Positions 4,030 to 4,407 of a stretch of DNA of 64,000 nucleotides are shown piece by piece. How positions within the stretch are numbered: the first letter of the stretch is position 1; the number at the start of each line of letters is the position of its first letter. The DNA is from a bacterium (GTDB lineage Bacteria; Patescibacteriota; Minisyncoccia; Phycocordibacterales; Phycocordibacteraceae), in the NCBI GenBank assembly GCA_037200965.1, contig JBBCGK010000001.1, positions 448,001 to 512,000 of the forward strand, written 5' to 3'. The notes beneath the pieces are model-generated. The model was given only the letters and a program-made list of their open reading frames with translations, searched no databases and was not told the DNA's origin. The translations under genes were made by a program, and so were the position numbers.

Positions 4030-4407
4030 CGCTGCGGCCCGCGCACCACTTTAGCCTCAACTCTTTTGGAAGGAGCGGAAACTAAAGTACTCGACGATCA
4101 AGACATGTTGTGAATCCGGATATCCGTTCCGATCTTCGTGGAATTATCCACAAAGAAAAGTCGGGGGCGTCTCCGTTCTACAACGTCATCCATCAGCTGG
4201 CCCAGGTCTTCCGGGCCGCAGATGTATTTCTGATCATCGTTCACGAACTCTAACGTGCACTCGGAAGCACTCGGATAACGATACTTGAACGACCTCAACT
4301 CTCTGGTCGTGAGCATCGTATACAGTACTTCGAGGTCAAGTTTTGTTCTTTGCTGCGTCATTTTGCTCTCCATATGTTGAGGACAAAGTGGTGCGCGGGC
4401 AGGCCTT
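4030..4407 (-). other. ORF-bearing helix insertion (IVS-like expansion) in 23S rRNA domain IV
   Basis: In rRNA sense, ...GGCCUGCCCGCGCACCACUUUGUCCUCAAC is followed by ~300 nt and then GUUGAGGCUAAAGUGGUGCGCGGGCCGCAGCGAAAGAUUCCCUGGCAACUGUUUACCAAAAACACAG. The two arms are near-perfect complements (~25 bp stem). The insertion replaces the short E. coli helix near positions 1840-1900. Confidence 0.6.
4098..4373 (-). CDS. hypothetical 91-aa protein encoded inside the 23S helix insertion
   Basis: ATG (MESKMTQQRTKLDLEVLYTMLTTRELRSFKYRYPSASECTLEFVNDDQKYICGPEDLGQLMDDVVERRRPRLFFVDNSTKIGTDIRIHNMS) starts 2 nt after the 5' stem arm. The stop lies just before the 3' arm. The composition is protein-like. 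No homing-endonuclease motif was recognised. Confidence 0.35.
   Translation of the reverse strand: MESKMTQQRTKLDLEVLYTMLTTRELRSFKYRYPSASECTLEFVNDDQKYICGPEDLGQLMDDVVERRRPRLFFVDNSTKIGTDIRIHNMS

What the first reader, a model, noticed from the sequence alone, without database searches (positions are those of the whole stretch)
4030..4407. Third 23S insertion: a ~25-bp perfect stem enclosing a 91-aa ORF in a domain IV helix
Unlike the two introns, this insert is flanked by long complementary arms (GCCCGCGCACCACUUUGUCCUCAAC paired with GUUGAGGCUAAAGUGGUGCGCGGGC). That arrangement is characteristic of RNase III-excised intervening sequences or helix expansions rather than self-splicing introns. It encodes a protein-like 91-aa ORF that starts right after the 5' arm. 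Protein-coding inserts in rRNA helices are rare and of unknown function.
Basis: seen in the sequence. Interest (0 to 1): 0.6.

Follow-up and report, generated by a model that had tools for sequence, protein, structure and literature searches.

The report
Mobile stem-flanked gene cassette in 23S rRNA
The insert is real and is one copy of a large, apparently undescribed family of hairpin-flanked selfish cassettes that sit at helix tips of the large ribosomal RNA gene in ultra-small Patescibacteria, some carrying a nuclease gene and this one a small orphan protein gene.

Summary
The 23S rRNA gene is on the minus strand. A 364-nt insert (window 4037-4400) replaces the tip of helix 63 in domain IV. 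Its 25-nt arms pair with 23 Watson-Crick pairs, one G·U and one U·C mismatch, so the stem is not perfect. Inside are GGAG, an 87-aa ORF (91 aa from an upstream ATG) and a conserved 3' box.

Scans of public genomes and metagenomes found about 100 related helix-63 inserts in Patescibacteria. All share the arm core CAYCACUUUG/CAAAGUGRUG and fall into three cargo classes:
- a conserved GIY-YIG nuclease;
- window-type cassettes, each with a different orphan 55-87-aa ORF;
- ORF-less structured RNA.

The arms co-vary. The window's nearest relatives lack the insert entirely. The same arms, and one complete window-type cassette, also occur at helix 25, helix 45 and other tips.

The ORF looks translated: its length beats shuffles, its codon usage is host-like, and codon periodicity is seen across the class. 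It has no homologue or recognisable fold.

Best reading: a mobile, IVS-type cassette, probably cut out of pre-23S rRNA by an RNase III-type enzyme. Excision, translation and protein function remain untested.

The parts
4037..4400 (-). Whole cassette (364 nt). It replaces the apical loop of 23S helix 63 (domain IV, E. coli ~1705-1769).
   Evidence: Inverted repeat. E. coli mapping. Insert-free relatives have a 44-nt helix-63 region.
4376..4400 (-). 5' arm, GCCCGCGCACCACUUUGUCCUCAAC. It contains the family core CACCACUUUG and the window-type extension UCCUCAAC.
   Evidence: Covariation of the arm pairing across 37 family members.
4037..4061 (-). 3' arm, GUUGAGGCUAAAGUGGUGCGCGGGC. It pairs with the 5' arm: 23 Watson-Crick pairs, one G·U and one U·C. 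The G·U plus U·C mismatch is shared by most of the window-type cassettes aligned.
   Evidence: pair 22-43 is non-standard in 17 of the 37 aligned family members.
4366..4371 (-). Shine-Dalgarno-like GGAGAG, directly after the 5' arm and 6 nt (counted from GGAG) before the ATG at 4361.
   Evidence: Sequence. The same arm-then-AGGAG-then-start layout appears in 16 sister cassettes.
4098..4361 (-). ORF of 87 aa plus stop (MTQQRT...IRIHNMS). An in-frame upstream ATG at 4373 would give 91 aa.
   Evidence: Length p = 0.004 against shuffles. Host-like codon usage in the correct frame only. No homologue or family.
4081..4090 (-). Conserved 3'-UTR box GUACUUUAGU (family consensus GUUCUUUAGU). It is a degenerate copy of part of the 5' arm and could pair locally with CUAAAG of the 3' arm.

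Best explanation
The insert is a non-autonomous member of a family of stem-flanked, intervening-sequence-type selfish cassettes. These cassettes occupy helix tips of Patescibacteria 23S rRNA genes; this copy sits at helix 63.

Shown:
- The two arms pair and extend helix 63 by 25 bp, looping out a 314-nt interior.
- The interior carries GGAG, a small ORF with real coding signals, and a conserved 3' box.
- The same arm core flanks three kinds of cargo in relatives.
- The arms belong to the element rather than the host helix, because the closest relatives have a plain short helix 63.
- The same arms occur at other 23S helix tips.

Inferred:
- The cassette is transcribed as part of pre-23S rRNA; no promoter of its own was found.
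- The long double-stranded stem is cut by an RNase III-type enzyme without religation. This would leave a fragmented but functional 23S (roughly 1.8 kb plus 1.15 kb after intron removal).
- Cleavage would release a stem-closed RNA of about 330 nt whose GGAG and ORF are intact, so it can serve as a mini-mRNA for the 87-aa protein.
- Spread between genomes and between helix tips happens at the DNA level. It is probably helped in trans by the GIY-YIG nucleases that sister cassettes encode.

The function of the 87-aa protein is unknown. It behaves like a fast-evolving accessory gene of a selfish element.
For: Stem and site.

Family:
- A 23S-flank scan of species-representative genomes gave a 44-nt helix-63 region in most CPR. 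It also gave 10 inserts sharing CAYCACTTTG.
- A metagenome scan added about 100 more.

Arm pairing:
- 94.3% of cells are paired, against 41-50% when partners are slid.
- 16 of 25 pairs show compensatory changes.
- The covariation score is 0.626 against 0.178 in shuffles (0 of 500 reach it).

Gain and loss:
- The window's nearest 23S flanks (distance 0.10-0.13: L092, L061, L047, L068) have no insert and no arms.
- Cassette-bearing L144 clusters within 8% of insert-free L061.
- One cluster holds an insert-free form, a bare hairpin and a GIY-YIG form.

Other sites: the same arms occur at helix 25, helix 45 and other tips. A complete window-type cassette sits at helix 25 of L033.

Sister cargo: GIY-YIG, Pfam E 4e-16 to 2e-18.

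ORF is real:
- Its length has p = 0.004, and the Fisher combination over 17 cassettes is 8e-12.
- The codon log-likelihood is 0.163 per codon in frame, against -0.25 and -0.31 out of frame.
- No out-of-frame host window reaches that value.
- Position 1 is the most purine-rich codon position in 16 of 16 ORFs. G is highest at position 1 in 15 of 16 (p = 8e-7).

Other points:
- No internal sigma-70 promoter.
- Precedent: the Coxiella IVS is 428 nt with a 28-bp stem carrying one mismatch and a bulge. It has an ORF in the loop and is excised by RNase III (PMC4990558).
- CPR rRNA insertions were reported absent from transcripts (Brown 2015, as cited in PMC9297842).
Against: - No RNA data were available, so excision, fragmentation and translation are all inferred.
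- No RNase III gene lies in the 64-kb window.
- Helix 63 is the site of eukaryotic expansion segment ES27, so a large retained insert is structurally tolerable.
- Cassette interiors fold much better than shuffles (mean z -3.1 and -3.5, window -6.2). That fits a retained structured RNA at least as well as a short-lived excised one.
- The host genome uses few Shine-Dalgarno sites: 5 of 30 long ORFs, against a 13% background. This weakens GGAG as evidence of translation.
- Window-type ORFs share no detectable sequence, and one relative is frameshifted (L130). The protein may therefore be dispensable.
- In Coxiella the IVS ORF is thought not to be expressed.
- The ORF's protein turned up only in DNA-based assemblies. 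This is uninformative on retention.
Confidence: 0.55

Rival explanations
1. Retained expansion segment. The insert stays in the mature 23S rRNA as a long helix-63 arm, a bacterial analogue of eukaryotic ES27. The ORF is then incidental, or translated only from precursor RNA.
For: - The site is helix 63.
- The stem is continuous with the helix.
- Interiors of the ORF-bearing cassettes of both classes (GIY-YIG and window-type) are strongly structured: mean z -3.1 and -3.5, window -6.2.
- ORF-less sister inserts look like long rod-shaped helices with conserved internal loops (read by eye).
- Bare-hairpin forms of 63 nt exist.
Against: - Distribution is sporadic among close relatives, and identical arms occur in 23S backgrounds up to about 38% diverged. 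That is not the gradual, clade-bound growth typical of expansion segments.
- A 22-25-bp near-perfect double-stranded stem is a standard RNase III substrate (established knowledge).
- CPR normally reduce helix 63 (PMC9297842).
- CPR insertions were reported missing from transcripts.
Confidence: 0.25
2. The ORF is a decaying or non-functional remnant, for example of a homing-endonuclease gene. The element would then be only an RNA-level IVS or helix extension with no protein product.
For: - The ORF is an orphan in 5.8 billion and 1.84 billion protein libraries, and a sister ORF is an orphan too.
- Window-type ORFs cannot be aligned with one another.
- L130/L176 carry a frameshift.
- GIY-YIG cassettes show deletion series: L205 to L156 to L143, and L167 to L127.
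- HMMER's best, non-significant alignment puts DDQKYICGPEDLGQL on the YIG strand-helix motif.
- In Coxiella the IVS ORF is judged to be decaying.
Against: - Sixteen of 17 window-type cassettes keep one intact sense ORF filling 54-87% of the interior, starting 11-31 nt after the arm core; the 17th (L130/L176) is frameshifted.
- Codon usage and periodicity are frame-specific.
- There is no statistical similarity to GIY-YIG by BLASTP, by family HMM (score -1.1) or by fold search.
Confidence: 0.25
3. A new kind of spliced intron. The conserved stem, with its G·U plus U·C irregularity, would be recognised by a protein endonuclease, and the rRNA halves would be religated, as in archaeal bulge-helix-bulge introns.
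For: - The arm core is conserved across several insertion sites.
- Most of the window-type stems aligned share the mismatch (17 of the 37 aligned family members).
- CPR insertions are absent from transcripts.
Against: - The stem has no bulge-helix-bulge geometry.
- No splicing endonuclease is known in bacteria (established knowledge).
- There is no Rfam intron signal.
- Helix tips tolerate breaks, so ligation is not needed.
Confidence: 0.05

Closest known systems
ORF-carrying 23S rRNA intervening sequences of Coxiella burnetii, Leptospira and Xanthomonas (S23p / 23S_rRNA_IVP ORF)
   Same: - A few hundred nucleotides at the tip of a variable 23S helix.
- Terminal inverted repeats that form a 25-28-bp stem with a mismatch.
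- A small ORF in the loop.
- Sporadic, selfish-element-like distribution (PMC4990558).
   Different: - The site is helix 63, not helix 45.
- The ORF is not S23p: no PF05635 hit, and the model is a mixed alpha/beta fold, not a four-helix bundle.
- GGAG lies inside the loop, so a cut in the stem would not remove it. In Coxiella the Shine-Dalgarno region is removed.
- Excision is untested here.
Non-intron 'insertion sequences' of CPR rRNA genes (Brown 2015; Tsurumaki et al. 2024, PMC11270868)
   Same: - Same lineage.
- Same class: inserts that are neither group I nor group II introns.
- Some encode GIY-YIG proteins.
- The authors suspected these to be RNase III-type IVSs.
   Different: - That survey annotated only ORFs with Pfam domains.
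- The parts of it that were read or term-searched do not describe the shared arm motif, helix 63 as a site, the window-type orphan-ORF cassettes, or the same arms at several helices.
Enterobacterial and Campylobacter helix-25 and helix-45 IVSs
   Same: Stem-flanked and horizontally spread. Sister copies of this family sit at the same two helices.
   Different: The classical IVSs are about 90-150 nt with no ORF. This family reaches 814 nt and carries genes.
Eukaryotic expansion segment ES27 (helix 63)
   Same: Same helix, and a long insertion tolerated on the ribosome surface.
   Different: ES27 is retained, inherited vertically and non-coding. Here the distribution is sporadic and the interior codes for protein.
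MITE-like non-autonomous transposable elements
   Same: Conserved terminal inverted repeats, variable interior, copies at several target sites, and autonomous (nuclease-encoding) relatives.
   Different: No target-site duplication could be recognised. All known targets are rRNA helix tips. No transposase is present, and a stand-alone 85-aa GIY-YIG domain is not a known transposase.

Membership tests
Bacterial 23S rRNA intervening sequence (IVS) | Inserted at the tip of a variable, surface-exposed 23S helix | tested here: met
   It replaces the helix 63 loop.
Bacterial 23S rRNA intervening sequence (IVS) | Terminal complementary sequences forming a double-stranded stem of at least about 20 bp | tested here: met
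   A 25-bp stem, supported by covariation.
Bacterial 23S rRNA intervening sequence (IVS) | Excised by RNase III without religation, giving a fragmented 23S rRNA | not testable with these tools
   No RNA reads were available. Metatranscriptomes SRR10968250 and SRR10968251 exist.
Bacterial 23S rRNA intervening sequence (IVS) | Sporadic presence among close relatives (gain, loss or horizontal spread) | tested here: met
   Flank clustering.
Bacterial 23S rRNA intervening sequence (IVS) | Located at a classical site (helix 9, 25 or 45) | tested here: not met
   This copy is in helix 63. Sister copies with the same arms lie at helix 25 and helix 45.
S23p / 23S_rRNA_IVP protein (PF05635) | Pfam match and a four-helix-bundle fold | tested here: not met
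   No Pfam hit at E <= 1. The predicted structure is mixed alpha/beta.
GIY-YIG nuclease | Match to PF01541 or to the cassette-borne GIY-YIG profile, with the catalytic Tyr/Arg/Glu motifs | tested here: not met
   Sister cassettes do meet it.
Group I / group II self-splicing intron | Match to the intron covariance models | tested here: not met
   The gene's other inserts include a group I hit.
rRNA expansion segment (ES27-like) | Retained in the mature rRNA | not testable with these tools
   Needs RNA data.
rRNA expansion segment (ES27-like) | Clade-bound, vertically inherited growth of the helix | tested here: not met
   The nearest relatives have the 44-nt form, while identical arms occur in distant backgrounds.
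MITE / inverted-repeat transposon | Terminal inverted repeats shared by copies at different loci | tested here: met
   This holds across genomes; only one copy lies in this 64-kb window.
MITE / inverted-repeat transposon | Target-site duplication | tested here: inconclusive
   No clear flanking direct repeat. An internal degenerate copy of the 5' arm lies next to the 3' arm, and its origin is unclear.

The most novel reading that the evidence does not exclude
The cassettes would be a modular gene-delivery platform that rides on rRNA.

- Conserved arms and untranslated boxes act as a portable frame. This frame can sit at any tolerated 23S helix tip.
- The frame borrows the cell's strongest promoter.
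- A double-strand RNase cut releases it as a stem-closed mini-mRNA.
- It expresses interchangeable, very fast-evolving micro-proteins. These could be anti-defence or host-interaction effectors of episymbiotic Patescibacteria.
- GIY-YIG-bearing members mobilise the rest.

The strongly structured yet coding interiors, and the alternative pairings (5' arm with the AAGUGG box, 3' arm with the CUUUAG box), would then be a processing and translation switch.
Probability: 0.2. Interest if true: 0.8.

Novelty: new variant of a known kind. Interest (0 to 1): 0.6.

Why it matters
Insertions in rRNA genes are a hallmark of Patescibacteria, but only the intron-type ones with LAGLIDADG genes have been characterised.

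This finding points to a second, coherent class defined by a shared arm sequence:
- it occurs at helix 63 and at the classical IVS helices;
- its cargo is exchangeable: a nuclease, orphan micro-proteins or structured RNA.

If the cassettes are excised, these bacteria run on fragmented 23S rRNA. If the ORFs are translated, genes are being expressed from inside an rRNA transcript, which has been doubted for the Coxiella IVS.

There are practical consequences too. Standard annotation masks rRNA genes or truncates them; the Rfam hit here stops about 900 nt short of the real 3' end. These genes and inserts are therefore invisible to most pipelines.

Tried and rejected
- **Homology of the 87-aa ORF.** Pfam, NCBIfam, PHROGs and PADLOC gave nothing. 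The word-indexed search of 5.8 billion proteins returned only the protein itself.
- **RCC1 hits.** The exhaustive HMMER search gave eight weak hits (E 6e-10 to 2e-4), all to giant RCC1-repeat proteins. I reject these as repeat-inflated matches to a short beta-hairpin motif (YICGPEDLGQL resembling WG.N.yGQLG). Pfam's RCC1 models do not hit the ORF.
- **Protein-level scan of metagenome contigs for relatives of the ORF.** None found.
- **Common family for the window-type ORFs.** All-against-all phmmer found only L224 similar to L135. Ten of them gave no Pfam hit. A second ORF (L128) is also an orphan.
- **Cassette swapping versus fast divergence.** Pairs with 88-94% identical 23S flanks have conserved ends and unalignable ORFs. 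No relative is close enough to tell replacement from saturation.
- **Other searches.** The first global MAFFT alignment to E. coli mis-placed the insert and was replaced by BLASTN segments. There is no RNase III signature in the window or in 1.48 Mb of held loci, which is uninformative. The viral-contig scan for the 3' arm gave 0 hits. The afdb50 fold library was unavailable.

Full report
**Source and context.** The window is identical to part of contig JBBCBH010010897.1. That contig is 960 kb and comes from a PacBio HiFi co-assembly of a deadwood metagenome. The window has 56.5% G+C and no tRNA gene. It holds a 23S-5S pair on the minus strand with no 16S gene. The 23S sequences nearest to it around the site belong to Candidatus Paceibacterota and Paceibacteria genomes, so the host is a Patescibacteria (CPR) bacterium.

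**The observation.**
- On the rRNA (minus) strand, GCCCGCGCACCACUUUGUCCUCAAC (4400-4376) faces GUUGAGGCUAAAGUGGUGCGCGGGC (4061-4037), with 314 nt between them.
- The 25 positions give 23 Watson-Crick pairs, one G·U and one U·C mismatch. The stem is very long but not perfect.
- No such pair is expected by chance (0.00 in shuffles). It is the longest inverted repeat in the gene.
- The insert folds with z = -8.8.
- BLASTN against E. coli rrlH brackets the insert between positions 1704 and 1770. That is helix 63 of domain IV.
- An Illumina DNA assembly of one of the same samples is identical through the insert (L002).
- The ORF runs from 4361 (or 4373) to the stop at 4098.

**Relatives.** I scanned one genome per prokaryotic species for the 23S motif just 5' of helix 63. 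I then measured the distance to the conserved sequence 3' of the helix.
- Most Patescibacteria have 44 nt there, a short hairpin such as CCUGCCCACAGCAAUGUGGGCCGCAG. This agrees with the published loss of helix 63 in CPR (PMC9297842).
- Of the 16 loci whose insert is longer than about 140 nt or is cut off by a contig end, ten begin with CAYCACUUUG, and those that are complete end with YAAAGUGRUG. One of the ten is the window.
- A metagenome scan anchored on flank plus arm core returned 110 more loci. Together with the genome-scan loci, 101 of the inserts are complete, 63 to 814 nt long.

**Three cargo classes share the arm core.**
- Class A, about 25 inserts: a well-conserved 85-95-aa GIY-YIG protein (Pfam E 4e-16 and 2e-18). 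Several have TATAAT 7-10 nt before the ATG, and the stop codon usually lies inside or directly against the 3' arm.
- Class B, the window's class: 17 distinct helix-63 inserts, counting the window, with arms CACCACUUUGUCCUCAAC / GUUGAGGCUAAAGUGGUG. L206 has arms identical to the window's.
- Class C: no long ORF, but a conserved RNA motif (CUAGAGAAUU ... GAGACAAA ... UAGAGCUA ... AUUCUCUA). It is not in Rfam.
- The shortest forms are bare hairpins made of the arms alone.

**Anatomy of class B**. The parts come in this order:
1. the 5' arm;
2. AGGAG;
3. often AAGUGG, a mimic of the 3' arm, next to the start codon;
4. one sense ORF of 55-87 aa;
5. the box GUUCUUUAGU, often followed by UCAAC, a degenerate copy of the 5' arm that can pair locally with the 3' arm;
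6. the 3' arm.

The window has all of these. Its 5' leader CAACAUAUGGAG is identical to that of L146. Its AAAAUGA aligns with the AAAGUGG box. Its 3' box is GUACUUUAGU at 4090-4081.

**The stem is real at the RNA or DNA level.** I aligned the arm regions of 37 distinct members. On that alignment 94.3% of cells pair, against 41-50% when partners are slid. Sixteen of 25 pairs show changes on both sides. The covariation score is 0.626 against 0.178 in shuffles, with 0 of 500 shuffles reaching it. The invariance of the CAYCACUUU core is partly built in by my metagenome pattern. The unbiased genome scan shows the same core.

**The element is mobile.** Clustering of 350 nt of flanking 23S shows the following.
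- The window's nearest neighbours (distance 0.10-0.13) have the plain 44-nt helix with no arms.
- Cassette-bearing L144 falls in the same cluster (under 8% distance) as insert-free L061.
- One cluster contains an insert-free form, bare hairpins and a GIY-YIG cassette.
- GIY-YIG cassettes with near-identical arms sit in 23S backgrounds up to about 38% diverged from the window.

The arms therefore belong to the element, and presence is sporadic.

The same arms also occur at other 23S helix tips in sister loci:
- after E. coli position ~534 (helix 25) in L033, L167 and L222;
- near positions 270-305 in L167;
- after position ~1143 (helix 45) in L177;
- between positions 1316 and 1376 in L186;
- before position 2450 in L188.

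The helix-25 insert of L033 is a complete class-B cassette of 288 nt. It has arms, GAGG, the AAAGUGAUG start, a 58-aa ORF and the GUUCUUUAGU box. Deletion series (L205 to L156 to L143; L167 to L127) and a frameshifted copy (L130) show decay.

**Is the ORF a gene?**

Evidence for:
- Its length exceeds dinucleotide shuffles (p = 0.004).
- Across the 17 class-B cassettes the Fisher-combined p is 8e-12. The longest sense ORF starts 11-31 nt after the arm core in 16 of them and covers 54-87% of the interior.
- Scored with codon frequencies from 27 long host ORFs, it gives +0.163 bits per codon in frame. Out of frame it gives -0.25 and -0.31. Host genes give 0.31 ± 0.19 in frame and -0.27 ± 0.13 out of frame, and no out-of-frame host window reaches 0.163.
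- Its GC1/GC2/GC3 pattern follows the host's.
- In all 16 class-B ORFs position 1 is the most purine-rich codon position. In 15 of 16, G is highest at position 1 (p = 8e-7). The pooled composition is rich in I, T, E, V and K.

Evidence against:
- The protein has no relative anywhere.
- Class-B ORFs cannot be aligned with one another even where the flanking rRNA is 88-94% identical and the cassette ends are 70-98% identical.
- The host rarely uses Shine-Dalgarno sites.

A single-sequence AlphaFold model is of low confidence (pLDDT 65.8). It shows a small alpha/beta fold with no significant structural neighbour.

My reading is that these are real but very fast-evolving small proteins. Their function is unknown.

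**How it most likely works.** There is no promoter in the insert, so it is transcribed within pre-23S rRNA. It is not a recognisable ribozyme. A 25-bp stem at a helix tip is the hallmark of RNase III-processed intervening sequences. The closest documented case is the Coxiella IVS: 428 nt, a 28-bp stem with one mismatch and a bulge, an ORF in the loop, and excision by RNase III in vitro (PMC4990558). CPR rRNA insertions were reported to be missing from transcripts (cited in PMC9297842). I therefore favour excision without religation. Unlike Coxiella, GGAG here lies beyond the stem, so the released RNA could be translated.

Excision, fragmentation and translation are inferences. A retained ES27-like arm is the main rival. 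The unexpectedly strong folding of the coding interiors favours it somewhat (mean z about -3; window -6.2 and -4.4).

**Comparison with what is known.** CPR rRNA 'insertion sequences' have been surveyed (PMC11270868). That survey found GIY-YIG ORFs only in non-intron insertions and suspected RNase III-type IVSs. It annotated only Pfam-positive ORFs, and the parts I read or term-searched do not describe a shared arm motif, helix 63 or orphan-ORF cassettes. No paper in the library links an IVS to helix 63 in bacteria. I rate this a new variant of a known kind: an IVS-type element family with a defined arm signature, several target helices and modular cargo.

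Noticed in passing
E. coli 2263-2593 aligns to window 2259-1926 and E. coli 2587-2782 to 1258-1062. So about 667 nt are inserted at E. coli ~2593, carrying a second LAGLIDADG ORF. The Rfam LSU hit ends at 1882, but the real 3' end is near 940. The gene therefore has four insertions.
   Followed up: partly
window ~2883-3932 and 2260-2554 (minus strand): The other two insertions. One of about 1 kb lies between E. coli 1854 and 1932 and carries a LAGLIDADG ORF at 3178-3717 (Pfam E 3.8e-21). Rfam does not call a group I intron there at gathering score. The other is about 295 nt at E. 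coli ~2263 and contains the Rfam group I hit at 2304-2520.
   Followed up: partly
L033 3198-3485; L167 ~2588 and ~2992; L222 ~2738; L177 ~2713; L186 ~474; L188 ~4613: The same arm motif (CAYCACUUU ... AAAGUGRUG, with a G+C-rich outer extension) flanks inserts or bare hairpins at other 23S helix tips. These include helix 25, helix 45, E. coli ~270-305, ~1316-1376 and upstream of ~2450. One is a complete window-type cassette at helix 25.
   Followed up: partly
L042, L062, L115, L098, L033, L031 and others (helix-63 inserts): ORF-less inserts share a conserved RNA motif (CUAGAGAAUU ... GAGACAAA ... hairpin ... UAGAGCUA ... AUUCUCUA) inside the same arms. No Rfam family matches it. It may be an undescribed structured RNA or a rod-like expansion.
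   Followed up: partly
class A loci, e.g. L188, L191, L137, L168: Several GIY-YIG cassettes have TATAAT 7-10 nt upstream of the ATG, which suggests their own promoter and a leaderless mRNA inside the rRNA gene. Their stop codon usually lies within or directly against the 3' arm.
   Followed up: no
window 7000-64000: Only 5 of 30 long ORFs have a Shine-Dalgarno-like motif upstream, against a 13% background. Several have a -10-like box (TACAAT, TATACT, TAGACT) 7-10 nt before the ATG, which suggests widespread leaderless transcripts in this organism.
   Followed up: no
interiors of the class A and class B cassettes; window 4062-4375: Although they code for protein, the cassette interiors fold much more stably than dinucleotide shuffles. 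Mean z is -3.5 for class A (n = 14) and -3.1 for class B (n = 16). The window gives -6.2 and -4.4. This is unexplained.
   Followed up: partly
window 4040-4100 and 4355-4375: In the minimum-free-energy fold, the GGAGAGC at the start of the ORF pairs with GCUCCUUCC in the 3' untranslated region. This extends the arm stem and would sequester the ribosome-binding site in the intact precursor. The pairing is not obviously conserved in relatives.
   Followed up: no
window 1882-1938: A 21-nt inverted repeat (90% complementary, 15-nt loop) lies at the boundary of the E. coli ~2593 insertion.
   Followed up: no
window 4343-5011 (+) and other ORFs across 1744-6430: Long ORFs antisense to, or out of frame in, the rRNA (for example 222 aa at 4343-5011) are called as genes in public assemblies. 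They are almost certainly spurious.
   Followed up: no
window 10578-14293 (minus strand): Two large, low-complexity, Thr/Ala/Gly-rich proteins share C- or N-terminal 'FTRDLTIGSxGADVxALQxWL' peptidoglycan-binding-like repeats. This is typical of Parcubacteria surface proteins (from memory, not tested here).
   Followed up: no
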